From: Ostreococcus lucimarinus
Taxonomy: Eukaryota
DNA length: 64,000 nucleotides
Reading direction: 5' to 3' (one strand)
NCBI GenBank assembly: GCA_000092065.1
Contig: CP000594.1
The position numbers were made by a program, and so were the translations under genes. Shown here piece by piece: positions 1 to 51,130 of this stretch. The notes under the pieces were generated by a model. It saw only the letters and a list, made by a program, of their open reading frames with translations, was not told the DNA's origin and did no database searches. Every line of letters starts with the position of its first letter. Position 1 is the stretch's first letter.

Positions 1-26
1 TTCCCTCCGCCACGAGCGCCGCGACG

Positions 27-1499
27 ATGGTAGCCGACGATCGACAGCGAAATCGCGCGCTCGGACGGCGTCGTGCGACGGCAATACGCTTAGCCTTTAG
101 TGCGCTCATGTTCACGTGCGCGGCGAACTCGCTGGTGTGGCTTCAGGGATTGACGTCGAGCGCGGGTGCTACCGAACGCGAAGTGTCATCACGCGCGCGA
201 CGTCGAGATGCGGAGACGTGTAAAGTCGATGCGCCGACGAGGCTGGCTGAACGTACGGCGCGTGATAGACTTTTCGGGTACAGACGACGAGACGTAGGCG
301 CGCTCGCGGCGTTGCGAGGCGATGGTGTGACGCTCTCAACGTCGACGACGCGCTGGCGCGATCTCCAATATGGAGACGCACTGGATCGGTACGGGTTCTT
401 TGTTACGTCTGAACCGGTTTTAAGCGAGAAAGAGGCGGACAAGACGCGGGCGCACCTGCTCAGTCTGTTGCGAAGTACGGATGTGTACGAGCAAAACGAT
501 GGGTGTCTCGGCGAACTTGCGGACTGTCAGGAGAGATTTGATTTGTCTCTTCGACTCACAACGACTGTGACACGCGCGGTGAATAAGATTGTGTCCACAC
601 TTAAGCCCGCACTGGTGGATATATTCGGCGATGAAGACTGTGAACTCGTAGAACTGAGTGCGTTGATCACATGTAAAGGCTCACCCACGCAAGGCATCCA
701 CAGTGATGCGGAAGGGGTGAAAGGAGACGATCGACTTGTCAGCGTGTTCGTATCATTACAAGACACCCCCACGAATCTTGGTCCAACGCACGTTTTCTTT
801 AACTCACCGAATGCTGTAACAGAGTTTGACTACTATTCCGCACTCATGCTGATGAGGATTGTGGCGGCCGAGCTCAAGAACTCGACGGTTGCGTTAAGAG
901 ATCATGGTCTTGGTGATATTTATATCAAGCAAGGCGTCGCAGCCATCCCAGAAAACGAGGTTGCGACAGAAGAAGAACTAAAATTCTTCAATGCGCACTG
1001 TAGAGTCGATGAGAGGGATAATACACTGGCATTCTATCCCCCTTGGGAGTCCTCCCCAAACGCCCGTCTCGTGTTTGGCGTCGTCGCTGCTACGCGACAG
1101 GGAGCCGCTCTCGTGTATGACTCGCGGACTCAACACAGAGGTGGAGCTAACACAGTAGGAGCGCGAGTACAACTTATGTTTAGTTTTCAGACGAAGCGTG
1201 CTTTTGTGGCTGGGTCGACATTCACAATGCGACGTAGGTATCATCGCATTGAACGCATGCCACTGACCCTCATGGAGAGAGCGACTCTGACATCATTTGG
1301 GCATGAATACGAGAAAAGCAAGTCGAACCTTGCGTGGTACCTGCGAGTATTCGGAAAGATACGCCTTCGAGACTTCCCATTACGAGCTGACACCACTGAT
1401 CAGGAACGTGAATGGGTGAATGCTGACTTAGTGCAAAACTCTGAAAACAAGTCGGACTTTGATGTCGATAGGATGGGGTTACAAGGTGGAGTGTTGTGA
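27..1499 (+). CDS. Membrane-anchored 2-oxoglutarate/Fe(II) dioxygenase-like protein (PhyH-like), 490 aa
   Basis: ATG-initiated 490-aa ORF with an N-terminal hydrophobic anchor (AIRLAFSALMFTCAANSLVWL). Candidate HxD (GIHSDAE) and distal H/R (SRTQHRGGAN) resemble phytanoyl-CoA-dioxygenase-type enzymes. Product assigned by eye only. Confidence 0.5.
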   Translation: MVADDRQRNRALGRRRATAIRLAFSALMFTCAANSLVWLQGLTSSAGATEREVSSRARRRDAETCKVDAPTRLAERTARDRLFGYRRRDVGALAALRGDGVTLSTSTTRWRDLQYGDALDRYGFFVTSEPVLSEKEADKTRAHLLSLLRSTDVYEQNDGCLGELADCQERFDLSLRLTTTVTRAVNKIVSTLKPALVDIFGDEDCELVELSALITCKGSPTQGIHSDAEGVKGDDRLVSVFVSLQDTPTNLGPTHVFFNSPNAVTEFDYYSALMLMRIVAAELKNSTVALRDHGLGDIYIKQGVAAIPENEVATEEELKFFNAHCRVDERDNTLAFYPPWESSPNARLVFGVVAATRQGAALVYDSRTQHRGGANTVGARVQLMFSFQTKRAFVAGSTFTMRRRYHRIERMPLTLMERATLTSFGHEYEKSKSNLAWYLRVFGKIRLRDFPLRADTTDQEREWVNADLVQNSENKSDFDVDRMGLQGGVL

Positions 1500-1537
1500 T
1501 GTAGATGTTGGTATAATTGCAGTTACCTCGACTACCG

Positions 1538-1723
1538 CTACATCATGCTCATGTTTGTTTTAAGTTCCTCTTCGAATCGAACGGTGCTCGGGTAATGCTC
1601 GGCGACCGGCGGCTCCTCAGAAATTTCTCCAGGTTCGTCAGAAGGCTCTTCAGATTGAACTGGATTCTTAACTATGATATTGTATGGTGTACCATCGGAC
1701 ATCGCGCGCAATATATTGGACAT
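1538..1723 (-). CDS. Hypothetical small acidic protein (61 aa), element-borne, divergent from the helicase gene
   Basis: ORF MSNILRAMSDGTPYNIIVKNPVQSEEPSDEPGEISEEPP... The first 17-18 codons recur at 47060-47116 (copy B), where the repeat is truncated. No recognisable domain; coding status unproven. Confidence 0.25.
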   Translation of the reverse strand: MSNILRAMSDGTPYNIIVKNPVQSEEPSDEPGEISEEPPVAEHYPSTVRFEEELKTNMSMM

Positions 1724-2064
1724 AACTTTTCATACTTAAAGGGGAGCCGCGTGATACACGAGGGACCATCTCACCACGAAGAAATGGGCACCTCTGGTAC
1801 CGAAAAACGTGGCACCCTCGTTCACGCGCGACCACTCTTGAGCCATGAACGGGAGCGACCCATCAAAGGAGACACGCGCACACCGATTCTCGACCACCCG
1901 TCTTCGCCGTGTGCTTTGCAGTACCCCGATCTCGTCGAAAAAGTAGCAAAATGTTGACCAGTGGGGCGTGCTGGCGTGCTTTTCCAGGCTGTTGAAAAAC
2001 TTGAAAATCAGTCATCGCGCCGATGTGACCAGGAAAAACACGGCTTAAAGAATTCTTTTCTTAT

Positions 2065-3096
2065 GTGATATATATGGACGCCAGAGAATTTACGAACGGC
2101 ATGCATCTGATCCCACTCGACCAGGACAAGGAACCAACATGCGGCAGGGGGTTCCTCGATGAAGCAAACTATGAACAGAACACGCAGAAAGTCATCCCAG
2201 GAGAAATGTACGGCGTGCTGACAGGGCGACCGAACCGTGTCCTCGTCGTCGACTGGGATTGTTACGGTGGCAAGTGCGAGTTTGAACTCACGGAAGAAAT
2301 GTTGACGCGCAAGGTTGGCGGGGAAGGCGCGTACATCGTCAAAACGCGATCAGGCGGGTACCACACGTACTTCGCATGGGACGAAGAACGAGTCGGCGAT
2401 TGGAAAGGCACAGTAGGCATCGAAGGGTTCGTCGATATCCGTACGACGGGTAACTACGTGGTCGGTGCCCATGCCCCGGGCTACGAGCTACTCCGAGGAG
2501 ACATCAACAATTTACCACCAATGCCCAACGATTTGTACAGTTTCTTTGATGGCAAAGTCGGTCACAAGGTCGAACGCGCCGACACGGAGTGCAGCTTTAC
2601 GCAAGCATCTGTGACACCTTTGCTCGAGGACATGGGGTTCACCGGCATACATTGGCTCAGTGGAGCGACATCGTATGATTTTGAATGCGACCAATGTCGC
2701 CCACAGCGAGGCACCTCTGTGGGCCAATGTCCTTGCTGTGGGGGCTTCCACGAAGGCAATGGAAAGGGCGGCGGGAACCACTTTTACGTCGCCGAGGTCG
2801 GCCTCGGCGTGCTCACCGTGAAAAACCATGGCAACTGCAAGCCCAGGCAGTTTCGCTTTGAGGTTGGGTGTCTGGTGACCGGTATCACCGAAAAGGAGCA
2901 GAACGAAATCAAAGAGGGCACGTCTGCGGGCTACATCGAGGTCCGCCGTGAGTTCGAGAAGCACGTCGCAAAGATCTTGACCAAGGACCTCTTCTGCGAC
3001 GATAGCTGTTATGGAACCACCGGGGAGATCGCCAAATTCAGCGAGGCCGCTTTGGTGAGGCGCTATCGAGAACTCTCCTTTGTCGATGAGAACGGC
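2065..3096 (+). pseudogene. Truncated PrimPol-helicase gene (N-terminal AEP primase and Zn-ribbon part only, 344 codons)
   Basis: About 97 percent identical in protein to residues 1-344 of the 736-aa ORFs and retains VVDWD, SGGYHTYF and DIRTTGNYVVG. After FVDENG the 426-aa track ORF continues into unrelated sequence (antisense of another fragment), so the SF3 helicase half is missing. Confidence 0.85.
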
Positions 3097-3330
3097 GCGT
3101 CCGATGAGCGTCTTGCTCACGGTGCAACCGTCCTGTTGGACCTTGAACTGAATTTTGGCGAAAGAGAGAAAGTCCTCGGGATCATTTGTCTTTTCAAAGA
3201 GCGCATTCAGACGGTCGCAGAGGTCGTCGTTCTCCGCCCATTCGGCGATGCTCTTCCTCACTGCATCGGGCGCGACGGGCTTCGTCGCCTCGTACGCCTT
3301 GAGGAGCAGCGAACGCGAAACGAACCGGTG
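3095..3330 (-). pseudogene. Fragment resembling the C-terminal region of a second, divergent D5/P4-type helicase gene
   Basis: The minus-strand reading is ...LLLKAYEATKPVAPDAVRKSIAEWAENDDLCDRLNALFEKTNDPEDFLSFAKIQFKVQQDGCTVSKTLIGRA, with no start or stop of its own. Its last 37 nt overlap the fragment at 15111-15147. The family assignment is pattern-level inference only. Confidence 0.3.
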
Positions 3331-3415
3331 ATATATATATATTAAGTAAAATTTGGCTATTGAGTCTTCATATGGGAAGCGTACCGATTACAAATTTCTA
3401 CTTCTGGCCCATCAC

Positions 3416-4132
3416 TTACTCAGCTGACTGGCACGAGGTGTACAGGTTCGCTGGGTCGTCCACCTTGACGAACTCGTACTTCGCGTGAGGGCTTATGGTA
3501 CCGGGGAAAGAGCACTCTTGCTTGCCACCCTTATCTTGACAGTACTTGTTCCGCTGCTGACTATAGATGGAGGTCTTGCCGTCTGCCAGCGTGGCGAGAG
3601 TAAACTTGGCGCCGACGAAAATTTCTTCGCCCTCAGCCTCCTTCGGCACGTCACACATAATTAGAGTCTTCCTCCATCCCGGGGGACCACGACTGAGGGT
3701 GTCATCAGCGTCCGTCGCGCAACGGAACTCGGCACCCGTCTCGTCCAAGCGAGTGAGGGTGTAAAAATTGCCCTCGTTCTTCAGGTACACGAGCTTTGGA
3801 GCGTTGTTCGCCGCCGAGGGATCCTCAGACGCAACGCATCGCTGCGAACAGGCGAAGCCCCACTGTCCATTTCCAGCGGTTCCGATGTTATAGTTGCAGA
3901 AGTTTTGATTCATCATGTTAGTCCCATACTTCGATGGGACCCAACCCCCTCGCATCAAGTACGCTCCGTCCTCGAGCGTCGCGCCTTGGCCGAGCGTCGG
4001 AAAGTGTGTTGAACCGACTCCCACGAGCGCGACGACACCGAGACAAGCGATCACGAGCGTTTTACCTCGGCGCACGTCGCTCGCCGCCTTGGCCGCGCGC
4101 ACTTCATCGCGCAGAGGCGTCGATTCGTCCAT
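3416..4132 (-). CDS. Type II membrane / secreted Cys-containing protein of unknown function (238 aa from the first ATG)
   Basis: The track ORF 3416-4270 begins at a non-ATG codon. The first ATG (MDESTPLRDE...) is at 4132. A single TM segment (LVIACLGVVALVGVGS) is followed by a Cys-containing ectodomain. Confidence 0.55.
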   Translation of the reverse strand: MDESTPLRDEVRAAKAASDVRRGKTLVIACLGVVALVGVGSTHFPTLGQGATLEDGAYLMRGGWVPSKYGTNMMNQNFCNYNIGTAGNGQWGFACSQRCVASEDPSAANNAPKLVYLKNEGNFYTLTRLDETGAEFRCATDADDTLSRGPPGWRKTLIMCDVPKEAEGEEIFVGAKFTLATLADGKTSIYSQQRNKYCQDKGGKQECSFPGTISPHAKYEFVKVDDPANLYTSCQSAE

Positions 4133-4356
4133 CGAATTAGTGTTGAGCGAACCCCTTCCGGCTGCTGTTTCGATCCCGTCGACCACGATTAACGACGCGC
4201 GTGTTTCACTCGTGCGTCCGACGCGCTTTTTCCCGACGCGGTTCCCGACTGCACTGACGTGCGTCGTCAAGTGCCTCGTCGTCGAGGGTGCTCGAGTTTT
4301 ACTTTTACTGTTGACGCGCCACGTCGGATTCCGACAGGCCCAGGCGCGGCCGCAAT

Positions 4357-4488
4357 GCTACTTTAAACTTAGTATATTTTTTTTGAAAAAAGAGTAGTAA
4401 GAGTAATAAAAACAAACTTTTTGCTACTTTAAACTTAGTATATTTTTTTTGAAAAAAGAGTAGTAAGAGTAATAAAAACAAACTTTTT
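4357..4488. repeat. 2 x 66-bp AT-rich tandem duplication in the element terminal region
   Basis: The unit GCTACTTTAAACTTAGTATATTTTTTTTGAAAAAAGAGTAGTAAGAGTAATAAAAACAAACTTTTT starts at 4357 and again at 4423. Copy B has a single unit. Confidence 0.9.
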
Positions 4489-4583
4489 TTTGAGTTGCGG
4501 CACCCCAACATGATAAAACCGCACATCGACGTCGATGTACCACATGTAAGATTTCTCCAGAACCAATCGTGTGAGTGAAGTGG

Positions 4584-5081
4584 TCAAACCAAGCCACGCA
4601 ACTCGTCTACCGTAAATTGATACTTGTCGAGACTGCGCTTCGAAGGCAGCGTGCCGCGCGCTCGAGCATTCTTGAGGCACGTCTTACGCAGTATTCTTTT
4701 CGCGTGCTGCTTGTAATAATTGAGTTGTCTGTAGTTACCATCGCCGCCGTCCCGCTTCGGCGTATATTTAGCTCTGCCAAGGGTTCGACTCTCGTCCACG
4801 TTCTCGTGGCACGTGTGTTTCTGGCTGAGTCCAGCAGCTCGGGAGTTGAATAAGCCGTCACGCTTCTCTCTCATGTAGGCACTTTTACGTTGATGGAGCT
4901 CTCCAGCTGGAATGTCCTTTTCGAGAACTCTCACGTTCGCGTCGCCAAACTTGAAGATTGGATGCCGTGCGTATTTATGCGAGGCAAGGCGCGCTCTGAG
5001 CGAACCTGTCGTCGATCCGATGTACGTTTTGTTACATTTTGCATTATCGCTAAACATTTCGTACACGCATCCCGACGGCAT
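4584..5081 (-). CDS. GIY-YIG family nuclease (165 aa), element-borne
   Basis: ATG ORF. The N-terminal GCVYEM...KTYIGSTTGSLRARL...H matches the GIY...YIG...R signature. It differs at 15 of 165 aa from the copy at 15262-15759, with the changes clustered in a central linker. Confidence 0.8.
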   Translation of the reverse strand: MPSGCVYEMFSDNAKCNKTYIGSTTGSLRARLASHKYARHPIFKFGDANVRVLEKDIPAGELHQRKSAYMREKRDGLFNSRAAGLSQKHTCHENVDESRTLGRAKYTPKRDGGDGNYRQLNYYKQHAKRILRKTCLKNARARGTLPSKRSLDKYQFTVDELRGLV

Positions 5082-5258
5082 TTGTCCTGGTCACCTATCT
5101 ATCCCTAAGAAAATATAGTTGCCAAAAGTGCTCCTCTTGCGGTTTGCAGTCACATTCGAGAGATCATAGGTGCTCGTGTTGCTGCGTGGGGTGCAAGGTC
5201 TGGGATGTAGATATCGAACCGCCTGATTTCACACCTGGACGTTCGTGATCCGACGAGA

Positions 5259-5449
5259 CCTGACGAAATGACGAACTTGTTTTGTCGTCCCCAAATTCGT
5301 CAGCCCGTCGTTCGGTCACACTTTGTGTGTACCAATGATGAAAATGACGAAATGTTAAAATATTTCAATGTTTATTTTTATTTTAGATCTATGAAAAGCA
5401 ACAGTGTAGACCTTTATGAAAACAGTTCGTCATTCGTCATTTCGTCAGG
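5259..5449. other. Iteron / inverted-repeat / AT-rich block in the element spacer (origin-like), fragment 2 copy
   Basis: Same 191-bp block as 15927-16117 and 44245-44435: CCTGACGAAATGACGAAC ... AT-rich core ... GTTCGTCATTCGTCATTTCGTCAGG. Confidence 0.4.
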
Positions 5450-5657
5450 ATCCAAACCATGGTCTTTTTGGTGTCTTGTTGAGTCTTCATATTGCAAATG
5501 TACGAATCACAAAATTAGTATGAACACCAGACGACCGCCGGCGCGAGCTCCGTCTCCCCCGTTTACCCATTGTCCTTCAGCCACTCGAAGCACCCGTCGC
5601 GGTCAATTTCCCAATAGACGCCATTCTCGTCCCTAGCTTGCCTCAGGTGGTCCTCTT

Positions 5658-5841
5658 AATACACCAAAAAGTAAATGCAATTATGGTGTTTCATTATTCC
5701 ATACGAGTACCCCAGAACGACGAGTCGTGACCCATACGGTAAAAATATCACGTCCCGCCGGTCCGGTCCCCATAGTATATAGAATTTATACAATTCAGCC
5801 CGCGTCATTACGGGGGTACAGTAATCTATGTGTCCGACATT
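5658..5841 (+). repeat. Intergenic module R1, copy a
   Basis: CCAAAAAGTAAATGCA...TTTCATTATTCCATACGAGTAC...GACGAGTCGTGACCCATACGGTAAAAATATCACGTCCCGCCGGTCCGGTCCCCATAGTATA...GTACAGTAATCT. It recurs at 19862-20125 (same orientation) and 36231-36410 (inverted), with a partial copy at 51131-51177. Confidence 0.7.
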
Positions 5842-5868
5842 AAACTCGATTTTTGCTAGGGTTTAGCG
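5842..5868 (+). promoter_or_regulatory. Conserved 27-nt 5' motif AAACTCGATTTTTGCTAGGGTTTAGCG (contains a telo-box-like AAACCCTA core)
   Basis: Identical 27-mer at 36494-36520 (+) and 19754-19780 (-), each immediately upstream of and oriented toward a large gene. Confidence 0.6.
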
Positions 5869-5889
5869 TCCCCGGTGTCCCGCGCGCGC

Positions 5890-19691: not shown

Positions 19692-19719
19692 CGCGTGCGT
19701 CGATGAGTGGCGCCGACAC

Positions 19720-43158: not shown

Positions 43159-43578
43159 CGTGGATGTACATTAAACCATGAACGAGGCGGGACACGGTTC
43201 GATTTTTGGATTACAAGTGTAGGTCTACTTTTACGTTTCGTGGACTCCGCTCGAGTCGGCCGATGTCACCATGTCAGGTGTTTCGAGTGCACTAGAGACG
43301 TGACCGCCGATACACAGGACGTCGAGCTCGGCGTGCCTGATTTCACGACTCGGCGACCATGGTTTGAAACCGAAATGACCATCGGCTTCAGGCCCAGGCG
43401 CGGCCGCAATGCTACTTTAAACTTAATTTTTTTTTTTTGAAAAAAGAGTAGTAAGAGTAATAAAAATAAACTTTTTTTTTGTTTGAGTTGGGGCCCCCCC
43501 AACATGATAAAACCGCACATCGACGTTGATGTACCACATGTAAGATTTCTCCGGGAACCAATCGTGTGAGTGAAGTGG

Positions 43579-44075: not shown

Positions 44076-44244
44076 TTGTCCTGGTTACCTATCTATCCCT
44101 AAGAAAATATTGTTGCCTCCTCCTGCGGTTTGCAGTCACATTCGAGAGACCATAGGTACTCGTGTCGCTGCGTGGGGTGCAAGGTCCGGGATGTAGATAT
44201 CGAACCGCCCGATTTCACACCTGGACGTTCGTGATCCGTCGAGA

Positions 44245-44435
44245 CCTGACGAAATGACGAACTTGTTTTGTCGTCCCGAAATTCGTCAGCCCGTCGTTCG
44301 GTCACACTTTGTGTGTACCAATGATGAAAATGACGAAATGTTAAAATATTTTAATGTTTATTTTTATTTTAGATCTATGACAAGCAACAGTGTAGACCTT
44401 TATGAAAACAGTTCGTCATTCGTCATTTCGTCAGG
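44245..44435. other. Iteron / inverted-repeat / AT-rich block, copy B
   Basis: Same block as 15927-16117. Confidence 0.4.
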
Positions 44436-44500
44436 ATCCAAACCATGGTCTTTTTGGTGTCTTGTTGAGTCTTCATATTGCAAATGTACGAATTACAAAA

Positions 44501-46711
44501 TTAGTATGAGCACCAGACGACCGCCGGCGCGAGCTCCGTCTCCCCCGTGTACCCATTGTTCTTCAGCCACTCGAAGCACCCGTCGCGGTCAATTTCCCAA
44601 TAAACGCCCTTCTCGTCCCTACCTTGCCTCAGGTGGTCCTCTTGCATTGGGACCCTGTGGCCCTTTTCCTTCTTGAAGAAGTCCTTGAGCTTATTACCGA
44701 CCTTCGTCGCGCTATCTTGACCGCGCGCAGCCGCTGGCAACCACGTCTGGTATTCGATGAAGATGTCACTGTTGCGGATTTTATTTCCAACCCACTTCTC
44801 AGGGAATTCAACAGTGACGCAATGCTCAAACCATCGAGTGAACTTGGGCATGCATCCACGCTTCATTTCCGAATACGCATCGGTCGTAGGTCTGTCTTTG
44901 ACGTAGTCAAAGGTCGATAGGTCGAGCCCCATGAGATGGTCGTAGATTGCCCTCAAGTTCCTCGGATCCCTGATGTAAACCTCGCGGAATTCCTTCAAGA
45001 ATCCAGTCTGGTCGTTCAAGTGCGTGAGCAGTGGCTCCATGACGACGAACCGACGATCACTCATTTCCAGAAAGACCGGGTAGTCGTCGTTCGAGAAAAA
45101 TAGGAACCCAACCAGATTCATGATGACGTACAGCTGCACGTGCTTCGGGTTGATTGTGAAACTCGTGTCCGTGAGCATCGACTTCAGCAACTTTCTATAC
45201 ATTTTCATGATGCACTCATCTGCTTCGTTCAACGCGAGGCACTTTTTGCCTTCAATCATGTTCGCATGCGTCCCAAATATGTCCTTTTTCGGATCAGCCG
45301 TCTCGTGAAACGTCTTGCCCATGAGCGCGTGAAGCAGGTGCAGGAAAGTGCCCTTGCCGGTACCTTGGACTCCTCGAAACACGAGCGACGTGATCGGCTT
45401 CTCTTCGGGTCTCTGGAAGAGACACGCGAACCAATTCGAAGCGTACTCGAGCGCATTTTCTGAACCGCCACATAGCACCAGGAGGAGCTCGAGGAAAGGC
45501 TTCACGTCGCCCTCTTTGCCCAGTTCACTGGGGATGCCTTCGACCGGGTAGCCTCGCCACAGATTGTACGTCTTGTTGCTGCAGTTTTTCGGGACGACGT
45601 CGAGGTTATCGTACACCCGTTTATTGTCGTCGTCGAGCCACTTTTCGATGAACCCGTTTTTCTTGCCTTTCCTCAAGACACCGTTCTCATCGACAAAGGA
45701 GAGCTCTCGATAGCGCCTCACCAAAGCGGCCTCGCTGTACTTGGTAATGTCCCCGGTGGTTCCATAACAGCTATCGTCGCAGAAGAGGTCCTTGGTTAAG
45801 ATCTTTGCGACGTGCTTCTCGAACTCACGGCGGACCTCGATGTAGCCCGCAGACGTGCCCTCTTTGATTTCGTTCTGCTCCTTTTCGGTGATACCGGTCA
45901 CCAAACACCCAACCTCAAAGCGAAACTGTCTGGGCTTGCAGTTGCCATGGTTTTTCACGGTGAGCACGCCGAGACCGACCTCGGCGACGTAAAAGTGATT
46001 CCCACCGCCCCTTCCATTGCCTTCGTGGAAGCCCCCACAGCAAGGACATTGGCCCACAGTGGTGCCTCGCTGTGGGCGACATTGGTCGCATTCAAAATCA
46101 TACGATGTCGCTCCACTGAGCCAATGTATGCCCGTGAACCCCATTTCCTCGAGCAAAGGTGTCACAGATGCTTGCGTAAAGCTGCACTCCGTGTCCGCGC
46201 GTTCGACCTTGTGACCGACTTTGCCATCAAGGAAACTGTACAAATCGTTGGGCATCGGTGGTAAATTGTTGATGTCGCCTCGGAGTAGCTCGTAGCCCGG
46301 GGCATCGGCACCGACCACGTAGTTACCCGTCGTACGGATATCGACGAACCCTTCGATGCCCACCGTGCCTTTCCAATCGCCGAATCGTTCTTCGTCCCAT
46401 GCGAAGTACGTGTGGTACCCGCCTGATCGCGTTTTGACGATATACGCGCCTTCCCCGCCGACCTTGCGCGTCAACATTTCTTCCGTGAGTTCAAACTCGC
46501 ACTTGCCACCGTAACAATCCCAGTCGATGACGAGGACACGGTTCGGTCGCCCTGTCAGCACGCCGTACATTTCTCCTGGGATGACTTTCTGCGTATTCCG
46601 TTCATAGTTTGCTTCATCGAGGAACCCCCTGCCGCATGTTGGCTCCTTGTCCTGGTCGAGTGGGATCAGATGCATGCCGTTCGTAAATTCTCTGGCGTCC
46701 ATATATATCAC
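44501..46711 (-). CDS. PrimPol (AEP primase) / Zn-ribbon / D5-like SF3 helicase fusion protein, 736 aa (copy B)
   Basis: Intact ATG ORF with all motifs as in 16183-18393 and 13 aa substitutions relative to copy A. Confidence 0.9.
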   Translation of the reverse strand: MIYMDAREFTNGMHLIPLDQDKEPTCGRGFLDEANYERNTQKVIPGEMYGVLTGRPNRVLVIDWDCYGGKCEFELTEEMLTRKVGGEGAYIVKTRSGGYHTYFAWDEERFGDWKGTVGIEGFVDIRTTGNYVVGADAPGYELLRGDINNLPPMPNDLYSFLDGKVGHKVERADTECSFTQASVTPLLEEMGFTGIHWLSGATSYDFECDQCRPQRGTTVGQCPCCGGFHEGNGRGGGNHFYVAEVGLGVLTVKNHGNCKPRQFRFEVGCLVTGITEKEQNEIKEGTSAGYIEVRREFEKHVAKILTKDLFCDDSCYGTTGDITKYSEAALVRRYRELSFVDENGVLRKGKKNGFIEKWLDDDNKRVYDNLDVVPKNCSNKTYNLWRGYPVEGIPSELGKEGDVKPFLELLLVLCGGSENALEYASNWFACLFQRPEEKPITSLVFRGVQGTGKGTFLHLLHALMGKTFHETADPKKDIFGTHANMIEGKKCLALNEADECIMKMYRKLLKSMLTDTSFTINPKHVQLYVIMNLVGFLFFSNDDYPVFLEMSDRRFVVMEPLLTHLNDQTGFLKEFREVYIRDPRNLRAIYDHLMGLDLSTFDYVKDRPTTDAYSEMKRGCMPKFTRWFEHCVTVEFPEKWVGNKIRNSDIFIEYQTWLPAAARGQDSATKVGNKLKDFFKKEKGHRVPMQEDHLRQGRDEKGVYWEIDRDGCFEWLKNNGYTGETELAPAVVWCSY

Positions 46712-47181
46712 ATAAGAAAAGAATTCTTTAAGCCGTGTTTTTCCTGGTCACATCGGCGCGATGACTGATTTTCAAGTTTTTCAACAGCCTGGAAAAGCAC
46801 GCCAGCACGCCCCACTGGTCAACATTTTGCCACTTTTTCGACGAGATCGGGGTACTGCAAAGCACACGGCGAAGACGGGTGGCCGATGATCCATGTGTCC
46901 GTGTCTTCTCTGATGATTCGCTCCCGTTCATGGCTCAAGTGGTCGCGCGACCTCGCGCGTGAACGAAGGTGCCAAATTTTAGGTACCAGAGGTGCCCATT
47001 TCTTCGTGGTGAGATGGTCCCTCGTGTACCACGCCGCTCCCCTTTAAGTATGAAAAGTTATGTCCAATATATTGCGCGCGATGTCCGATGGTACACCATA
47101 CAATTTCATAGTTAAGCCACACTTATTATATGACGACAGTGCCTACCTGTCGGTGGTCACGGAAAAGTTGCGTCTCAGACT

Positions 47182-47320
47182 GAGGATGGCGTGGCTCATG
47201 CGAGCTATATATACCTCATATATACATATATTAACACTTATAACACTATTAATGTACAATTGATTGGATGAGGTGCTCAGTCCACCCGCGCGAGGTCAAC
47301 AGCAGCAATTGTCTATGCAC
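47182..47320. repeat. Module R3, copy a (about 139 bp; includes the last codons and 3' flank of the metallothionein-like gene)
   Basis: GAGGATGGCGTGGCTCATGCGAGCTATATAT...TTGATTGGATGAGGTGCTCAGTCCACCCGCGCGAGGTCAACAGCAGCAATTGTCT recurs as a direct repeat at 48869-49007. Confidence 0.8.
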
Positions 47321-47643
47321 TTGGAGCATGAGTTTTTGCACTCGCACGACGGACACGCGCAGGAGGTGCATCCGCACGACTTACACGTGGTCGCATCGGG
47401 ACACGCGCATTTGTCGGGGCCACAAGCATCACAGTCTTTCGGGCAGCACGCCTTGTCCGTGGACTCAGATTGTACCGTCCGTGCTGCAACCCGCGTCGGG
47501 CGCGAGACGACGCGCACGGCGCGTGGCGCGGTTCTTGACAATACGAAATCTGGTATCTGCGTACTCTTTACCTTAACGGCGGAGACTTTGAGCATTGTTG
47601 CGTCGAGGAATGGGCCAAGGGTAAGTAACCTCGTGGTCGGCAC
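47296..47643 (-). CDS. Metallothionein-like Cys-rich protein with an N-terminal extension (115 aa, or 99 aa from M17)
   Basis: The C-terminal 52 aa contain 18 Cys in CxC/CxxC/CC arrangements (KACCPKDCDACGPDKCACPDATTCKSCGCTSCACPSCECKNSCSKCIDNCCC). The N-terminal 45-60 aa are S/T/R/V/A-rich, like a transit peptide. Confidence 0.6.
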   Translation of the reverse strand: MPTTRLLTLGPFLDATMLKVSAVKVKSTQIPDFVLSRTAPRAVRVVSRPTRVAARTVQSESTDKACCPKDCDACGPDKCACPDATTCKSCGCTSCACPSCECKNSCSKCIDNCCC

Positions 47644-47810
47644 GTGCCCGCCTTATACAATCGACGCCTGAAAAGGGAGACTGGATGAGATCGAGGGCAC
47701 CCCGTGAGCGATCACTCTTCGACGCGGAACTCGTTCCTGTAGACGGCCAGCCACCACTCGAACGACCATACGGCAGCACAAAAGTACATCCACAACGTGT
47801 ACGTATCGAA

Positions 47811-48542
47811 ATGGCTGCCTATACTCAAGCGACGTTAACAGCACCTTCGTCGTCGACAGCCGTAAGCAATTCGAAGATAAGACTACGCCGTTCACGAACA
47901 ACTACGCGCACACATTCTGATCCGTCCGAAAGTACGCCGTTGAGTGAAGAGGCGCAAATCATAGTTGATGCATCGGAGGCGTACCCAGCGCAGACAAGCG
48001 TGGATTATTCGTTCGCAAGGAGTGGGTTCAGTAACCAGTGTGAACGAGCACTCAACGAGCAAATCAATGTCGAGTACAATATTTCGTACGTCTATCACGC
48101 CATGTGGGCGTACTTCAATCGTGACAATATCGCATTGGCTGGCTTTGCTGAACACTTTCGAAAAGAGTCACTGGAGGAGCGTGCGCATGCGGAACAACTC
48201 ATGGAGTACATGAACTTACGAGGCGGCAAAGTTGAGCTCCAACAATTGTTACCACCACAGAGTGAATACGATCGCCCGGAGAAAGGATGCGCACTATTAG
48301 CCCTGGAGCTGAGTTTGAGTCTCGAAAAGTTGAATAAAGAGAAACTGTGTGAACTGCATCGCGTCGCTGAGGATGCAGGAGACGCACATATGTGCGATTT
48401 TATTGAAGGCGAGTTATTAGACTCGCAGGTTCAAAGTGTGCGACAGGTTAGCGAGATGGTCGCCACGCTATTACGCATGGGACCGCCAGCAGATGGTATG
48501 GCAACTTGGCACTTCGATCAAACCTTACTTGAGGTGGCATAG
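47811..48542 (+). CDS. Ferritin with an N-terminal targeting-like extension (243 aa)
   Basis: Ferritin-like four-helix signature: NEQINVEYNISYVYHAMWAYF...FRKESLEERAHAEQLMEYMNLRGG...ALELSLSLEKL...DAHMCDFIEGELLDSQV. The first ATG in the 285-aa track ORF is at 47811. Confidence 0.85.
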   Translation: MAAYTQATLTAPSSSTAVSNSKIRLRRSRTTTRTHSDPSESTPLSEEAQIIVDASEAYPAQTSVDYSFARSGFSNQCERALNEQINVEYNISYVYHAMWAYFNRDNIALAGFAEHFRKESLEERAHAEQLMEYMNLRGGKVELQQLLPPQSEYDRPEKGCALLALELSLSLEKLNKEKLCELHRVAEDAGDAHMCDFIEGELLDSQVQSVRQVSEMVATLLRMGPPADGMATWHFDQTLLEVA

Positions 48543-48651
48543 AAGCGGATTGTATCTCGTTGAGTCTAGTCACTTTCGTGTGCTCGTTTCGTTGGTTTCT
48601 GGTTACGAGTTCTTCCGTTGTTCTAAATATAACATATATTTAGACATATCC

Positions 48652-48779
48652 AAACCCTAGTACAATCACCCTAGGGTTTAGTCAAACTTTAATCAGTTTT
48701 ATCTAAATTAATTTTCATCTGTCGTCGCGAAAGATGAATCCTCGCGACAGAAAAACAGGTCTAAACCTTAAACCCTAAC
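48652..48779. repeat. Cluster of telomere-like AAACCCTA motifs in a convergent intergenic region
   Basis: AAACCCTAG at 48652, palindromic CCCTAGGGTTTA at 48669, and CTAAACCTTAAACCCTAAC at 48761-48779. Confidence 0.55.
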
Positions 48780-48790
48780 TTCGGTTGGGC

Positions 48791-48870
48791 TATATAGCAC
48801 TTTGGGCGGTTAAAACCGCGCCCAAAGCCCCATATATTGTCCCATGTTTCGGCCAAATCCCGCGCTTTGA
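48791..48870 (+). repeat. Intergenic module R2, copy b
   Basis: TATATAGCACTTTGGGCGGTTAAAACCGCGCCCAAAG...AATCCCGCGCTTTGA. Homologous to 36151-36230, with the hairpin retained through different stem bases. Confidence 0.6.
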
Positions 48871-49007
48871 GGATGGCGTGGCTCATGCGACCTATATATG
48901 CCTCATGCGTACATATATTAACATTTATAAGGGTATTAATACATAATTGATTGGATGGGGTGCTCAGTCCACCCGCGCGAGGTCAACAGCAGCAATTGTC
49001 TTTGCAC
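48869..49007. repeat. Module R3, copy b (retains only ...CKDNCCC-stop of a metallothionein-like 3' end)
   Basis: Direct repeat of 47182-47320. It lies in the 3' flank of the minus-strand gene 49178-50968. Confidence 0.8.
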
Positions 49008-49177
49008 TGATCAGTCCGTGTTTGACAAGGAGACGTTCGCGCGAAAGTGAGTGGAGTGAGATAAGCAAAATTGGGATTTTTTGTTATTTAAAATGACTTC
49101 TTTTATATCGACGATCTTGTCTCGATTATACGCTGACCTTCGCGGGTGCTTGTTGTACTTGTACGTACACGACCCAG

Positions 49178-50968
49178 CTAGTCCGCTTTGTTGTGGATCT
49201 TGTCGCACTTGTCGAAAGCGTATGCGGCGACGGTACTGCTGACCCCGGACGGATCAAAGACTGATGCGAGCTCAGCTGCCGCGCGGACCGCATCCGTCTC
49301 TGATTCCGCGCTGTTTACGTTTTTCATCGCAGAAAAATAGCCGGTAGTCTTACCAACCGCCTCCATACCTTGGTCGAGACTATTTGCCGCCTTTTTCAAA
49401 GCAGCAAGCTTACTCCCAGCTTCGGCAACGTTAGCACCGGCACGGGCTGCAGCCTTGGCCCCAGTTGTCGCAGCTCCACTACTCCCAGCGGTCGCTACAA
49501 ATGCAATAATTTCCAACGGCCCGAGAATCATATTAGTTACCGCGGAGCCACAAGCGGCGTCATCTTTTGCGGCACCCATACCGCAGTTCACCCACTTCTC
49601 ACCGCTCACTGTTGGAGGTTGGCCCCAGCAAACTGGACCGACGCCATTGTAACCACTGCGACATTTCTTGTAACACAAACCAGCGTCGTACTCCAAACCA
49701 GGAGGACACGTGGCTGCTTCAAAGCCGTGTGAGCAGTATATCTTTTTCGGGCAACTCGGCGCAATTCCATGTGCGTACCCATTGCCGGTGCAAGAAACGC
49801 CGCACAAGTTGCAGCCAATCCGGTTCGGATGACTGCTAGGGCAAGGAGGATAACAAAGTCCAAGACAGTCTTGTCTTCCTTTTCTGCTACAGTGCCTTCC
49901 GCCGCATACGAGTCTTGTCCTCGCGTTCCCCAAAAGGCGTCGACCGTTGGCCGCATGTTCGCCAAGGGTGGATGATGATGATGACCAGTACTCCCAGCCA
50001 CACTGGACGGTACCAACACCACGACCGCGGTTACCTCTGTTACAAAAAAGACCATGATCATTCCAGCCCGAGCCGCAGCGTTGATGGCAGTCGTAGCCAA
50101 ATCTGGCATAATTACCGAGGTGGTGGCATTTGGTATAGCACAAGACGCCCCCTGCAATTGTTTCTTTATTGGAAGGGCAATGAGACGGGACTTTGCCCAC
50201 ATCGCGGCCGTATGAGTTTTTCCAACAGAACTCGACGGTGATGGCGTTCGCAACGACAGCACCCTTCGCATTCGACGCAGCACTTACACCATCACTAAAG
50301 CTGTCCCATTTTCCGCCCAACCGAGCAGATAGCATCGCTTCGTGTACCTCCAATAATGCCTTGTCTTGCTCAATCTCTTCGTGCAGTTTTTGCATATATG
50401 CTGAGACGTTCACTGGCGCCGGTTGCGTCGCACCCTCATCCACCGTGGCCTGCCAAACGAAGTTCGAATGCTCATCATTAGCAAGATTTTCATCGTCACG
50501 CCTGCGCAAATGTTGTTTAAGCATCTTAATTCGTAATAGCGTCGCGTTTCTTCCGCCCTTGGTCGATATGAACATGCCATCCTCGGCTCCTGCCGCATTC
50601 AACCTGGGTTCGGCACCTGGGATCACCTCCCCAGGACCCGCACTCCCGAGCAACGCGTGGACTTCTGGACCGAATTCCATCTCGTCAACGAATTCGTCCA
50701 AGTGATCAGGGAGATCAAATTCACCCTGGATCGAGTGCGCGGACAATCCCAGCAACGCAGACGGCCCTTTCGGTGCACTTTCACGGTACGAGAACGAAAT
50801 CACACCCACAGCAAACAGCACAGCGGCCTGCTTCACGGTACACCAGCCGCATGCCGCCGCTTTTCGCCCTTCACGTTCCTCCGTTTGTTGCCAACTGCGA
50901 GCGCCGTCGTTCGACGAGCCGGGCGCGCCGTATGTCTCACTAATCGCCGCCGCTTCGTACGTCGGCAT
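49178..50968 (-). CDS. Cys-rich membrane protein of unknown function, 596 aa
   Basis: ATG ORF with an N-terminal TM segment (AAVLFAVGVISFSY), a repetitive Cys pattern (..CP.G....G.LCY.KC..GY.GVGPVCW..) and an Ala/Gly-rich C-terminal part. Confidence 0.65.
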   Translation of the reverse strand: MPTYEAAAISETYGAPGSSNDGARSWQQTEEREGRKAAACGWCTVKQAAVLFAVGVISFSYRESAPKGPSALLGLSAHSIQGEFDLPDHLDEFVDEMEFGPEVHALLGSAGPGEVIPGAEPRLNAAGAEDGMFISTKGGRNATLLRIKMLKQHLRRRDDENLANDEHSNFVWQATVDEGATQPAPVNVSAYMQKLHEEIEQDKALLEVHEAMLSARLGGKWDSFSDGVSAASNAKGAVVANAITVEFCWKNSYGRDVGKVPSHCPSNKETIAGGVLCYTKCHHLGNYARFGYDCHQRCGSGWNDHGLFCNRGNRGRGVGTVQCGWEYWSSSSSTLGEHAANGRRLLGNARTRLVCGGRHCSRKGRQDCLGLCYPPCPSSHPNRIGCNLCGVSCTGNGYAHGIAPSCPKKIYCSHGFEAATCPPGLEYDAGLCYKKCRSGYNGVGPVCWGQPPTVSGEKWVNCGMGAAKDDAACGSAVTNMILGPLEIIAFVATAGSSGAATTGAKAAARAGANVAEAGSKLAALKKAANSLDQGMEAVGKTTGYFSAMKNVNSAESETDAVRAAAELASVFDPSGVSSTVAAYAFDKCDKIHNKAD

Positions 50969-51130
50969 AGTTTGTTCCTTTAGTCGAGCGTCGGATTGTG
51001 GCGAAACGGCGGGTGCCCTCGGTCGGTCGGACGGACTTTCGCGGTCGGTCGGACGAGGGGCCCGTTGGCGCCCCGCGGGTGTGTGTACCAGCCCTTAGGG
51101 TTTAATGTATATTAATGTATTTATGGGTAT

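What the first reader, a model, noticed from the sequence alone, without database searches (positions are those of the whole stretch)
1..51000. Accessory island pattern: giant surface genes alternate with copies of the helicase/nuclease element
Order along the window:
- dioxygenase-like gene;
- element fragments 1 and 2, around a small membrane-protein gene;
- DUF285 receptor-like gene plus coiled-coil gene;
- element copy A;
- coiled-coil gene;
- 5,156-aa adhesin;
- lectin-like gene;
- element copy B;
- metallothionein-like / ferritin pair;
- Cys-rich membrane protein.

Both full element copies sit 3' of a large plus-strand gene. Each is preceded by the same 48-bp module (14712 and 43111), which lies about 230-390 bp before the element-related sequence. 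Nearly every host gene here encodes a membrane or secreted protein. The arrangement resembles a variable cell-surface island whose rearrangement may be driven by the repeats. The functional link is speculative.
Basis: inference. Interest (0 to 1): 0.5.

Follow-up and report, generated by a model that had tools for sequence, protein, structure and literature searches.

The report
Hypervariable surface-gene island in Ostreococcus
The first 51 kb of this window is a low-GC block of giant cell-surface genes, inserted between two ordinary genes of the tiny marine alga Ostreococcus lucimarinus; wild relatives lack it or carry differently arranged versions, and it is littered with copies of a small virus-derived replication element.

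Summary
The window is Ostreococcus lucimarinus CCE9901, on a 708,927-bp chromosome. Positions 1-51182 (GC about 50-53%) hold giant membrane or secreted protein genes alternating with two full and two truncated copies (94-97% identical) of a 3.4-3.9 kb element. Core genes at about 60% GC start at 51183.

The element encodes a primase-polymerase/SF3 helicase fusion (736 aa, dN/dS 0.13) and a GIY-YIG nuclease. An origin-like iteron/AT-rich structure lies between the two genes. It has no capsid gene, integrase or terminal inverted repeats. Its nearest outside relatives sit in polinton-like virus (PLV) genomes that carry a double jelly-roll capsid gene.

Environmental contigs about 99% identical to the core show the island is polymorphic:
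- Many have an exact empty site (Apple-domain gene|RbfA).
- Others carry different cassettes at the same junction.
- Reciprocal junctions map to an 18-bp palindrome in shared promoter modules.
- Two junctions map to the element's left end.

Best reading: an outlier-chromosome-like hypervariable cassette island on an apparently standard chromosome, shuffled by recombination between dispersed repeats. A link to virus resistance is untested.

The parts
1..51182 (.). Window part of a low-GC accessory island. It continues a few genes to the left of the window.
   Evidence: GC is 0.49-0.55 here against 0.54-0.71 to the right. Homology with island-free conspecific contigs begins exactly at 51183.
27..1499 (+). 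490-aa island gene (XP_001421291.1) with an N-terminal hydrophobic anchor. The 'dioxygenase-like' label is unconfirmed.
   Evidence: Exact match to O. lucimarinus CCE9901. No Pfam or NCBIfam hit. At least four different upstream neighbourhoods in environmental contigs.
1667..3095 (+). Element fragment 1, inverted relative to copies A and B: the promoter region plus Prim-Pol N-terminal half, broken at codon about 344.
   Evidence: 96-97% identical to 47116-45681 and 18558-17363. dN/dS 0.15 against A and B.
3416..4270 (-). 284-aa type II membrane protein gene lying between the two fragments.
   Evidence: ORF. One TM-like segment at residue about 68. Cluster of 75 environmental members.
4335..5657 (-). 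Element fragment 2. It comprises 3'-module remnants with a 67-bp tandem duplication (4356-4488), an intact GIY-YIG gene (4584-5081), the origin-like region (5259-5449) and the last 47 helicase codons.
   Evidence: Contig L008 diverges from the window at 4469, inside the 67-bp unit.
5656..5876 (+). 5' promoter module with a half palindrome (5816-5826) and a telobox-like start motif, TCGATTTTTGCTAGGGTTTAGCG.
   Evidence: Repeated at 19760-20029 and 36229-36520.
5875..14399 (+). DUF285 giant membrane protein gene (5875-12597) plus an overlapping 630-aa ORF (12507-14399).
   Evidence: PF03382, 13 stretches. Five TM-like segments. Internal 1-kb duplication at 98.7%.
14708..14759 (+). 48-bp module, copy 1. 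It is a remnant of the shared 3' flank of giant genes.
   Evidence: 88% identical to 43107-43158. No unusual folding.
15148..18558 (-). Element copy A: GIY-YIG gene 15262-15759, origin-like iteron region 15927-16117, Prim-Pol/SF3 helicase gene 16183-18393.
18696..19769 (-). 357-aa cassette gene. In contig L056 this unit abuts the core directly.
   Evidence: ORF. L056 matches window 18432-20027 at 100% and is then joined to core sequence.
19881..20060 (.). Promoter module plus two palindromes (GGGTAGATTACTGTACAGTAATCTACCC and a second copy). This is a crossover site.
   Evidence: Hairpin z-score -5.5. Junctions 20027|core in L056 and 51168|20040 in L018 and L019.
20438..35908 (-). 5156-aa adhesin-like type I membrane protein with PAN, TSP1 and DUF285 repeats.
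   Evidence: Tandem 114-bp and 162-bp repeats at 24551-25773.
36151..36520 (.). Divergent promoter region: a D17 module, a palindrome at 36229-36246, an inverted 5' module and the telobox-like start motif.
   Evidence: Hairpin z-score -3.3.
36505..42996 (+). 2163-aa lectin-like membrane protein with Tectonin and F5/8 type C domains.
43093..43416 (+). Shared 3' module of giant-gene cassettes. It contains 48-bp module copy 2 (43107-43158).
   Evidence: 94% identical to L031 8840-9159, where it follows a different giant gene (PAN/TSP1, more than 3247 aa) and is joined directly to the core with no element. Also present in L008, L013 and L042.
43417..47321 (-). Element copy B: GIY-YIG gene from 44075 with a frameshifted C-terminus, origin-like region 44245-44435, Prim-Pol/helicase gene 44501-46711, and a promoter/right-end region that includes the D13 repeat (47181-47321).
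   Evidence: Solo right-end fragments (about 46825-47292) occur in L008, L009, L015 and L042.
47296..48542 (.). Metallothionein-like Cys-rich ORF (47296-47643, -) and ferritin gene (47685-48542, +), bracketed by 141-bp direct repeats at 47181-47321 and 48868-49008.
49178..50968 (-). 596-aa Cys-rich protein gene (XP_001421481.1), the terminal cassette in the reference strain.
51108..51182 (.). Terminal promoter module plus palindrome (51154-51176) and the island/core junction ...GTACAGTAACCCTCTAG|TAGAACACG.
   Evidence: At least five junction types were observed here.
51183..64000 (.). Core chromosome: RbfA, mitochondrial carrier, ABCF, HECT ligase, NOM1-like MIF4G/MA3 and MRP-S28 genes.
   Evidence: 96-99.6% identical in all contigs, with or without the island.

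Best explanation
Window 1-51182 is the right-hand 51 kb of a hypervariable, low-GC accessory island of O. lucimarinus CCE9901.

Shown:
- The island sits in the 3'-3' spacer between two conserved genes (Apple-domain gene ABO99581 and RbfA) of a 709-kb chromosome.
- It is built from cassettes. These are giant surface-protein genes and a few small genes, each bounded by shared 5' promoter modules that end in a half palindrome (GATTACTGTAC) and by shared 3' modules.
- Natural haplotypes differ in three ways: an exact empty site, different cassettes at the same boundary, and reciprocal junctions that cross over in the palindromes.

Inferred: content is shuffled by recombination, gene conversion and deletion between these dispersed repeats. 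Cruciform-prone palindromes are the main crossover points, and element copies supply extra homology.

The interspersed 3.4-3.9 kb element is the replication module of a polinton-like virus (PLV) lineage. It carries a Prim-Pol/SF3-helicase fusion, a GIY-YIG nuclease and an iteron/AT-rich origin, and it has lost or never had the capsid module.
- Shown: it is multi-copy and its helicase gene is under purifying selection.
- Inferred: it is, or recently was, a self-replicating selfish element. It inserts next to the shared 3' module, perhaps through GIY-YIG cleavage followed by repair.
- Speculative: selection by prasinoviruses for cell-surface diversity maintains the polymorphism.
For: Organism and locus:
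- The window's proteins match CCE9901 accessions exactly, on a 708,927-bp record.
- The left-flank core genes (RRS1 ABO99580, PAP ABO99758, Apple-domain ABO99581) carry accession numbers immediately before the island genes ABO99583 and ABO99584.
- GC steps up at about 51 kb.

Polymorphism:
- 9 of the 10 longest contigs carrying the identical mitochondrial-carrier protein are 96-99.6% identical to 51183-62900, yet carry high-GC core genes to the left. The tenth (L031) carries a different giant gene.
- An independent 28-mer scan of JGI metagenomes found 7 empty sites and 3 occupied sites, in two configurations that both differ from the reference.
- L017 confirms the reference junction.
- L043 and L044 give the left junction at the same dinucleotide as the empty site.

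Crossover sites:
- L018 and L019 join 51168 to 20040, and L056 joins 20027 to the core.
- The palindrome motif occurs 9 times against 0.5 expected and forms strong hairpins.
- All breakpoints lie on repeats.

Element:
- Domains were identified, and catalytic residues are invariant across homologues.
- dN/dS between copies A and B is 0.13.
- There are 7 TGACGAA iterons around an AT-rich core in each copy. A diverged copy keeps the same architecture with a changed iteron, TGATGAA.
- GIY-YIG identity rests on motifs and on homologues that carry PF01541.
- Relatives L002 and L003 carry a double jelly-roll capsid gene.
- The 90%-identity clusters hold 601 helicase and 898 nuclease sequences, against about 50-190 for single-copy core genes.
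Against: - The contigs returned first are the longest ones, which favours repeat-free (empty) haplotypes. Haplotype frequencies are therefore rough.
- Junction variants come from different samples and are not phased. 'Reciprocal' junctions could equally reflect a cassette swap, a deletion plus duplication, or a circle.
- Metagenome contigs can be chimeric at repeats, although several junctions recur in independent samples.
- The island's left edge in the reference strain, and the chromosome number, were not seen directly.
- No terminal inverted repeats, target-site duplication or integrase were found, so transposition is unproven. Copy B's nuclease gene is frameshifted.
- Origin function and nuclease activity are inferred from sequence only. 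The GIY-YIG fold match is not significant.
- Nothing here tests virus resistance.
Confidence: 0.7

Rival explanations
1. The whole island is an endogenous viral element (an integrated giant virus or large polinton-like virus) rather than host-type hypervariable DNA.
For: - Low GC and precise insertion into an intergenic spacer.
- It contains virus-derived replication genes.
Against: - There is no capsid, packaging ATPase, protease or integrase. tblastn with the L002 and L003 proteins finds only the primase-helicase and the GIY-YIG gene in the window.
- The gene content is eukaryotic surface proteins with PAN, TSP1, F5/8C and DUF285 domains, plus ferritin.
- Content differs between haplotypes at the same site.
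Confidence: 0.07
2. The element copies are inert relics spread only by segmental duplication. Rearrangement is driven entirely by the promoter and palindrome modules, and the alternation of elements with giant genes is incidental.
For: - Most junctions map to palindromes, not to element ends.
- Copy B's GIY-YIG gene is frameshifted and two copies are truncated.
- No terminal inverted repeats or target-site duplication were found.
Against: - Both 736-aa ORFs are intact, with dN/dS 0.13 over 41 substitutions.
- Iteron architecture is conserved, with a changed iteron in a diverged lineage.
- The 90%-identity clusters are very large.
- Copies occur in many different contexts, including other long contigs.
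- Junctions at 4469 and 43416 coincide with the element's left end.
Confidence: 0.2
3. The apparent structural diversity is an artefact of chimeric metagenome assemblies collapsing at repeats, or of mixing sister species.
For: - All junctions lie in repeats, where assemblers mis-join.
- Three empty-site contigs are only 92-96% identical to the others.
Against: - The same junctions recur in independent samples and assemblers: L018 and L019; L021 and L023; L049 and L054; and 16 empty-site contigs.
- Empty-site contigs are colinear over more than 20 kb at 99.2-99.6% identity, and some are long-read assemblies of 127-337 kb.
- An empty site cannot be produced by a mis-join at island repeats, because it contains none of them.
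Confidence: 0.05
4. The region is part of the big outlier chromosome's low-GC mating-type region (BOC1), not an island on a standard chromosome.
For: - Low GC with a sharp boundary.
- Contig L008 continues into low-GC housekeeping-type genes (cobW, GTP cyclohydrolase II, FMN dehydrogenase).
Against: - Accession and UniProt order place this chromosome about 78-82% of the way through the proteome, whereas BOC is chromosome 2 (PMC7016971).
- The island is flanked on both sides by high-GC core genes a few genes apart.
- The polymorphism is presence/absence, not two diverged haplotypes.
- Long ORFs here are uninterrupted, whereas BOC1 is intron-rich (supplement of 10.1101/2025.04.21.649811).
Confidence: 0.06

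Closest known systems
Small outlier chromosome (SOC/SOC1) of Mamiellales: O. tauri chr 19, O. lucimarinus chr 18 (PMC5498103, PMC5082852, PMC3491373, PMC13390643)
   Same: - Low GC: about 50-53% here, and 53% for O. lucimarinus chr 18.
- Extreme within-species variation in content and order.
- Dense repeats and duplications.
- Enrichment for membrane components.
   Different: - This is an island of roughly 55-70 kb inserted at a defined spacer of a 709-kb chromosome with core genes on both sides. SOC occupies a whole small chromosome.
- Clean empty-site alleles exist.
- Crossovers map to a specific palindrome in shared promoter modules.
- Genes are giant adhesin- or lectin-like proteins rather than the glycosyltransferases and methyltransferases typical of SOC.
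Polinton-like viruses and virophages with a primase-helicase (Pri-Hel) and GIY-YIG genes (PMC3671162, PMC10120064)
   Same: - A fused primase-polymerase/SF3 helicase and a GIY-YIG nuclease.
- Relatives at 33-36% and 50% identity lie on 17-21 kb contigs that carry a double jelly-roll capsid gene.
   Different: - The element is only 3.4-3.9 kb.
- It has no capsid, penton, ATPase, protease, integrase or terminal inverted repeats.
- Several near-identical copies and fragments occur within one host island.
P4-alpha / NrS-1-type primase-helicase replicons of phages, satellites and plasmids
   Same: - Helicase half matches the NrS-1 helicase domain (PDB 6K9C, E = 2e-25) and TIGR01613, the P4-family primase C-terminus.
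- A cognate-looking origin of inverted iterons flanks an AT-rich core next to the gene.
   Different: The host is a eukaryotic nucleus, the element is integrated in multiple copies, and origin function is untested.
Flexible ('metagenomic') genomic islands of marine bacteria that encode cell-surface structures, such as Prochlorococcus islands (cited in PMC5498103)
   Same: - A fixed chromosomal site with strain-specific content that is under-recruited in populations.
- A bias towards surface-exposed products.
- Mobile-element remnants.
- Phage or virus avoidance as the proposed driver.
   Different: The host is eukaryotic and the genes are giant multi-domain ones. There is no tRNA or integrase hallmark. 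This is an analogy only.
Contingency surface-antigen cassettes, such as trypanosome VSG genes with their 70-bp repeats (from general knowledge)
   Same: Variable surface-protein genes are flanked by conserved upstream and downstream repeats that could serve as recombination substrates.
   Different: There is no evidence of programmed switching or expression sites. The variation seen is between individuals in a population.

Membership tests
SOC1-type outlier region of Mamiellales | GC content markedly below the genome average | tested here: met
   0.49-0.55 in 1-51000 against 0.54-0.71 to the right. The published SOC value for this species is 53% (PMC3491373).
SOC1-type outlier region of Mamiellales | Hypervariable gene content and order within a species | tested here: met
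   Empty site, alternative cassettes and alternative junctions in contigs about 99% identical to the core.
SOC1-type outlier region of Mamiellales | Occupies the whole length of a small (about 150-650 kb) chromosome | tested here: not met
   The record is 708,927 bp. High-GC core genes flank both sides.
SOC1-type outlier region of Mamiellales | Spatial insulation, hypomethylation, and size change on viral resistance | not testable with these tools
   Needs Hi-C, methylome data and infection experiments.
Polinton-like virus / virophage (integrated) | Double jelly-roll major capsid protein gene | tested here: not met
   tblastn with the L002 and L003 proteins finds no capsid homologue in the window. 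The capsid fold is confirmed only in the relatives.
Polinton-like virus / virophage (integrated) | Primase-helicase or pPolB replication gene | tested here: met
   Prim-Pol (PF09250) plus DUF5906.
Polinton-like virus / virophage (integrated) | Integrase (tyrosine recombinase or rve) and terminal inverted repeats | tested here: not met
   The ORFs that were scanned have no such domain. Not every island ORF was scanned. No terminal inverted repeats around either full copy.
AEP Prim-Pol / SF3 (P4/D5-type) primase-helicase | Prim-Pol catalytic motifs (DxD, sGGxH) and a Zn-binding Cys/His cluster | tested here: met
   D63, D65, S96-G98, H100, C208, C222, C225 and H229 are invariant in 10 homologues down to 34% identity. 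PF09250 is recorded on homologues and on the L008 fragment.
AEP Prim-Pol / SF3 (P4/D5-type) primase-helicase | SF3 helicase core with Walker A | tested here: met
   PF19263, E = 2e-14. PDB 6K9C, E = 2e-25. PHROG DNA primase, E = 5e-31. G450, G452 and K453 invariant.
GIY-YIG nuclease | GIY...YIG motifs with conserved Arg, Glu and Asn | tested here: met
   VYE(6-8), YIG(20-22), R29/R31, E61 and N79 are conserved with a 51%-identical homologue. PF01541 is recorded on three homologues. Direct Pfam hits are weak, E = 0.007 and 1.4e-4.
GIY-YIG nuclease | beta-beta-alpha-beta-alpha fold | tested here: inconclusive
   The AF2 model has that order of secondary-structure elements. The top Foldseek hits are Slx1, R.Eco29kI and UvrC, but at E about 1.
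Helitron (rolling-circle transposon) | HUH Rep nuclease fused to a PIF1-like SF1 helicase | tested here: not met
   Only Prim-Pol and SF3 helicase domains were found.
Cut-and-paste DNA transposon | Transposase, terminal inverted repeats and target-site duplication | tested here: not met
   No transposase domain and no terminal inverted repeats. The ends are defined only by comparing copies.
BOC1 / candidate mating-type region | Lies on chromosome 2, is intron-rich, and has two diverged haplotypes | tested here: inconclusive
   Accession order argues against chromosome 2. Long ORFs are uninterrupted. The polymorphism is presence/absence. The chromosome number was not read directly.

The most novel reading that the evidence does not exclude
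The 3.4-3.9 kb unit (GIY-YIG nuclease, iteron/AT-rich origin, Prim-Pol/SF3 helicase) may be an autonomous, capsid-less, virus-derived integrative replicon. That would be a kind of eukaryotic mobile element not covered by current transposon classifications. It would spread within, and perhaps between, Ostreococcus species: copies 95-97% identical occur in Great Barrier Reef long-read contigs, a dataset whose Ostreococcus genomes were reported as clade B. It would target the shared 3' flank of giant surface-gene cassettes. It would then either seed the recombination that diversifies the cell surface or itself interfere with prasinovirus replication, as virophages and polinton-like viruses do in other protists.
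Probability: 0.2. Interest if true: 0.8.

Novelty: new variant of a known kind. Interest (0 to 1): 0.62.

Why it matters
Why Mamiellales algae keep low-GC, hypervariable 'outlier' DNA, and how that DNA diversifies so fast, is an open question tied to coexistence with prasinoviruses. Work so far concerns whole outlier chromosomes, where ancestral states and breakpoints are hard to define.

This locus offers a compact, tractable case:
- a defined insertion site with natural empty alleles;
- cassette boundaries that can be written down to the base;
- a specific palindrome at which crossovers recur;
- a candidate selfish replicon with a predicted origin.

It also names concrete giant surface proteins as candidates for virus-receptor or decoy variation. 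Finally, it shows that an element family exists in a genome recently described as largely lacking transposable elements in its outlier regions (10.1101/2025.04.21.649811).

Tried and rejected
- tRNA genes as integration targets: none in the window.
- Terminal inverted repeats around both full copies: none.
- Structure of the 48-bp module: folding energy no better than shuffles, z = -0.1 to -1.2.
- IMG/VR viral contigs:
  - A profile search found only weak 60-residue Prim-Pol matches.
  - The exact origin 24-mer was absent.
  - The single 18-bp palindrome hit lies in AT-rich coding sequence of a 194-kb viral contig and is a chance match.
- Pfam, PHROGs and PDB-sequence searches did not identify the L002/L003 capsid. 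Structure prediction was needed.
- The profile of the nuclease against PDB sequences found nothing.
- L058 holds a 736-aa gene near a PLV capsid fragment, but that gene is unrelated to the element. The equal length is a coincidence.
- Exact look-ups of the 736-aa and 630-aa proteins found no record.
- Palenik et al. 2007 (PMC1863510) is not held, so the chromosome number and the PAP/RRS1 duplication could not be checked against the genome paper.
- A possible 'TA' target-site duplication at the island edges is too short to mean anything.
- I considered treating fragments 1 and 2 as one element split by an inversion. Their internal break points (equivalent to 17363 and 16323) leave 1,039 bp missing, and L042 shows their flanks in other combinations. 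They are better read as separate truncated copies in a mosaic.

Full report
**What the window is.** Several window ORFs are exact matches to Ostreococcus lucimarinus CCE9901 proteins on a 708,927-bp record. Examples are 27-1499 (XP_001421291.1) and 49178-50968 (XP_001421481.1). The right-hand 13 kb encodes ordinary eukaryotic housekeeping genes: RbfA, a mitochondrial carrier, ABCF, a HECT ligase, a MIF4G/MA3 protein and MRP-S28. GC is 0.49-0.55 up to about 51 kb and 0.54-0.71 beyond. The species' small outlier chromosome is chromosome 18 (149 kb, 53% GC; PMC3491373) and the big outlier is chromosome 2 (PMC7016971). The accession and UniProt order of these proteins, about 78-82% of the way through the proteome, argues that this is neither. 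That is an inference. I could not read the chromosome number directly.

**Checking the observation.** Self-comparison confirms two full element copies and two truncated ones.
- Copy A is 15148/15161-18558.
- Copy B is 43417/43482-47116, with flank sequence shared with other loci up to about 47321.
- Fragment 1 is 1667-3095. It is inverted and carries the promoter plus the first 344 codons.
- Fragment 2 is 4335/4489-5657. It carries the left end, the small gene, an intergenic region and the last 47 codons.

All copies are 94-97% identical. The 48-bp module is real (14708-14759 and 43107-43158, 88% identical) and lies at the stated distances from the element. The order of host genes is as described, and domain and hydropathy scans support the labels for the giant genes.
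- The 2240-aa protein has DUF285 repeats and several transmembrane segments.
- The 5156-aa protein has PAN, TSP1 and DUF285 repeats between an N-terminal anchor and a C-terminal transmembrane segment.
- The 2163-aa protein has Tectonin and F5/8-type C domains and a C-terminal transmembrane segment.
- There is also a ferritin, a Cys-rich metallothionein-like ORF and a Cys-rich 596-aa protein.

'Dioxygenase-like' and 'coiled-coil' remain unverified.

**The element's genes.** The 736-aa ORF (16183-18393 and 44501-46711, minus strand) is a fusion of an archaeo-eukaryotic Prim-Pol domain and a P4/D5-type SF3 helicase.
- PF19263 matches at E = 2e-14.
- PF09250 is recorded on homologues and on an environmental copy of fragment 1.
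- The helicase half matches the NrS-1 primase-polymerase helicase domain (PDB 6K9C, E = 2e-25), PHROG 'DNA primase' families and, weakly, TIGR01613.
- The DxD and SGGxH motifs, a Cys/His cluster and the Walker A motif are invariant in ten homologues down to 34% identity.

The 165-aa ORF is a GIY-YIG nuclease.
- The GIY, YIG, Arg, Glu and Asn positions are conserved with a 51%-identical homologue.
- Three more distant homologues carry PF01541.
- The predicted N-terminal fold has the right beta-beta-alpha-beta-alpha order, and its best structural matches are Slx1, R.Eco29kI and UvrC. Those matches are not significant.

**The element's origin-like region.** Between the two genes every copy has seven TGACGAA repeats in two inverted clusters around an AT-rich core (15927-16117, 44245-44435, 5259-5449). 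About 0.05 such repeats would be expected by chance in a region of that size. A copy whose helicase is only 82% identical (L001) keeps the same layout with a changed repeat, TGATGAA. A distant relative (L002) has a 48-nt inverted repeat array at the same position, 3' of its helicase gene. This is the architecture of a replication origin matched to its own initiator. The function itself is inferred.

**Evidence for element activity and abundance.** Copies A and B differ by 27.5 synonymous and 13.5 non-synonymous changes, giving dN/dS = 0.13. The gene therefore diverged under selection. Copy B's nuclease gene is frameshifted. There are no terminal inverted repeats, and the ORFs that were scanned have no integrase or transposase domain. 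The 90%-identity clusters hold 601 helicase sequences and 898 nuclease sequences. Single-copy core genes from the same organism give about 50-190.

**Where the element comes from.** The nearest relatives outside Ostreococcus-like contigs (33-36% identity) lie on 17-21 kb low-GC contigs, L002 and L003. L002 also encodes the nuclease at 50% identity. The two contigs share two further adjacent genes. I modelled the 436-449-aa shared protein from a 37-sequence alignment (pLDDT 86). It is a double jelly-roll major capsid protein: Foldseek gives E = 7e-18 to PBCV-1 Vp54, and the top viral model scores E = 3e-35 with TM 0.81. The element's relatives are therefore small capsid-encoding viruses of the polinton-like kind. 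The window copies keep only the replication module, and the window has no capsid homologue. A fragment of an L002-like virus is embedded in a 185-kb algal-type contig. That shows such viruses do integrate into host genomes of this GC range.

**Presence or absence of the island in natural populations.**
- Of the ten longest contigs that encode the identical mitochondrial-carrier protein, nine are 96-99.6% identical to window 51183-62900. To the left they carry high-GC core genes instead of the island: a 287-aa Apple-domain protein, poly(A) polymerase, RRS1 and RRP12.
- In those nine, homology with the window starts exactly at 51183.
- The tenth contig, L031, carries a different giant gene (more than 3247 aa, PAN/TSP1) followed by the 43093-43416 module. 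That module is joined straight to 51162.

In CCE9901 itself the same core genes carry accession numbers immediately before the island genes: RRS1 is ABO99580, the Apple-domain gene ABO99581, then ABO99583 and ABO99584, which is window 27-1499. The island is therefore an insertion into the 3'-3' spacer between the Apple-domain gene and RbfA, and it extends only a few genes left of the window.

Contigs L043 and L044 give the left junction...GTTGTTATACATA|TACTTGTACAC.... It is at the same position as the empty site...GTTGTTATACATA|TAGAACACG.

An independent scan of JGI metagenomes for a core-side 28-mer returned ten contigs.
- Seven are empty sites. Three of these come from a lineage only 92-96% identical, which suggests the empty state is ancestral.
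- Three are occupied, in two configurations that both differ from the reference.

L017 reproduces the reference junction. Contig-length bias favours empty haplotypes in the first sample, so frequencies are only rough.

**Where the breaks are.**
- L018 and L019, from different samples, join window 51168 to 20040.
- L056 joins 20027 directly to the core.
- L020-L025 attach at least three other sequences at 51163-51168.

All of these cross over inside GATTACTGTACAGTAATC. This palindrome occurs nine times in the window against 0.5 expected. It forms strong hairpins (z = -5.5 and -3.3) and terminates shared promoter modules. Those modules also carry a telobox-like motif at the starts of three island genes.

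The 51168|20040 and 20027|core junctions are the two reciprocal products expected from exchange between the palindromes at 20012-20029 and 51154-51176. They could equally come from a swap of the cassettes that lie between an element copy and a palindrome. They are not phased, so I cannot tell which.

Two junctions coincide with the element's left end: 4469 in L008, inside a 67-bp repeat, and 43416 in L031. The remaining breakpoints (6185, 7436, 49041, 51108) also lie at repeat boundaries. Sampling is confined to the island's edges, because look-ups of interior genes found no records.

**The 48-bp module.** It belongs to a roughly 320-bp module (43093-43416) that follows different giant genes in different haplotypes, with or without an element. 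It is a cassette 3' flank. The element is repeatedly found next to it, which could reflect a target preference, but that is unproven.

**Comparison with what is known.** The island behaves like the small outlier chromosome of Mamiellales in GC, hypervariability and repeat load. Recent work shows exchange between that chromosome and standard chromosomes (PMC5498103, PMC13390643). The differences are that it is embedded at a defined site of a large chromosome, that it has clean empty alleles, and that crossovers recur at a specific palindrome. I found no description of this locus or of this element in the searchable literature. [quoted passage not shown] Absence from the held library is not proof of novelty.

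**Verdict.** This is a new variant of a known kind. It is interesting mainly because it makes the mechanism of outlier-type hypervariability testable at base-pair resolution, and because it exposes a virus-derived mini-replicon family.

Noticed in passing
Left of the window on the same chromosome (accessions only): In CCE9901 the poly(A) polymerase and RRS1 proteins next to the island each have two accessions with identical sequence, about 35 genes apart per strand (ABO99724/ABO99758 and ABO99545/ABO99580). The genes on the island's right side have one accession each. This suggests a recent segmental duplication of about 100 kb or more that ends at or near the island's left edge.
   Followed up: no
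L001 1-1232 and L042 9467-13045 (Great Barrier Reef long-read contigs): Element copies 95-97% identical to the window's occur in 112-kb and 296-kb contigs. These come from a dataset whose Ostreococcus genomes were reported as clade B (RCC809-like), a different species (PMC13558084). The host-gene clusters of these contigs showed no CCE9901 member among those read. This may mean cross-species spread of the element.
   Followed up: partly
window 5853-5876, 19760-19870, 36497-36520, 51090-51105: Telomere-repeat-like 'telobox' motifs (AAACCCTAA / TAGGGTTT) sit at or just upstream of the starts of several island genes, inside a shared motif TCGATTTTTGCTAGGGTTTAGCG.
   Followed up: no
window 47181-47321 and 48868-49008; L002 1475-1550: 141-bp direct repeats (90% identical) bracket the metallothionein-like/ferritin pair. 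A 77-bp stretch of the same repeat (84% identical) occurs inside the PLV-like contig L002. The first copy also forms the outer part of the element's right end in several loci.
   Followed up: partly
window 47264-47671: Two overlapping ORFs lie on opposite strands: a Cys-rich metallothionein-like one (-, 115 aa) and a His-rich one (+, 118-135 aa) that environmental gene callers chose. Which is expressed is unknown.
   Followed up: no
window 7957-8990 vs 8965-9998; 24551-25773: A 1,034-bp internal duplication at 98.7% identity lies in the DUF285 gene. The 5156-aa gene holds near-perfect tandem repeats (114 bp x 6, 162 bp x 3), so these genes probably also vary in length.
   Followed up: no
window 12507-12597: The 2240-aa DUF285 ORF and the following 630-aa ORF overlap by 91 nt in different frames. 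They may be one gene joined by an intron or a frameshift.
   Followed up: no
L008 10489-15753: In one haplotype the sequence after window 4469 continues into low-GC (about 50%) housekeeping-type genes (cobW-like GTPase, GTP cyclohydrolase II, FMN-dependent dehydrogenase). These genes have large environmental clusters, but no CCE9901 accession was seen among the members read.
   Followed up: partly
L058 2203-3271: A truncated capsid gene, 87% identical in DNA to the PLV-like contig L002, is embedded at the end of a 185-kb contig of 51-60% GC, next to SET, rhodanese and NDK genes. This is an endogenous PLV remnant in an unidentified alga.
   Followed up: partly
window 51308-51352 and 60528-60572: Long (TCG)n/(GAC)n tracts encode poly-Asp/Ser runs in two core genes (I7).
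   Followed up: no
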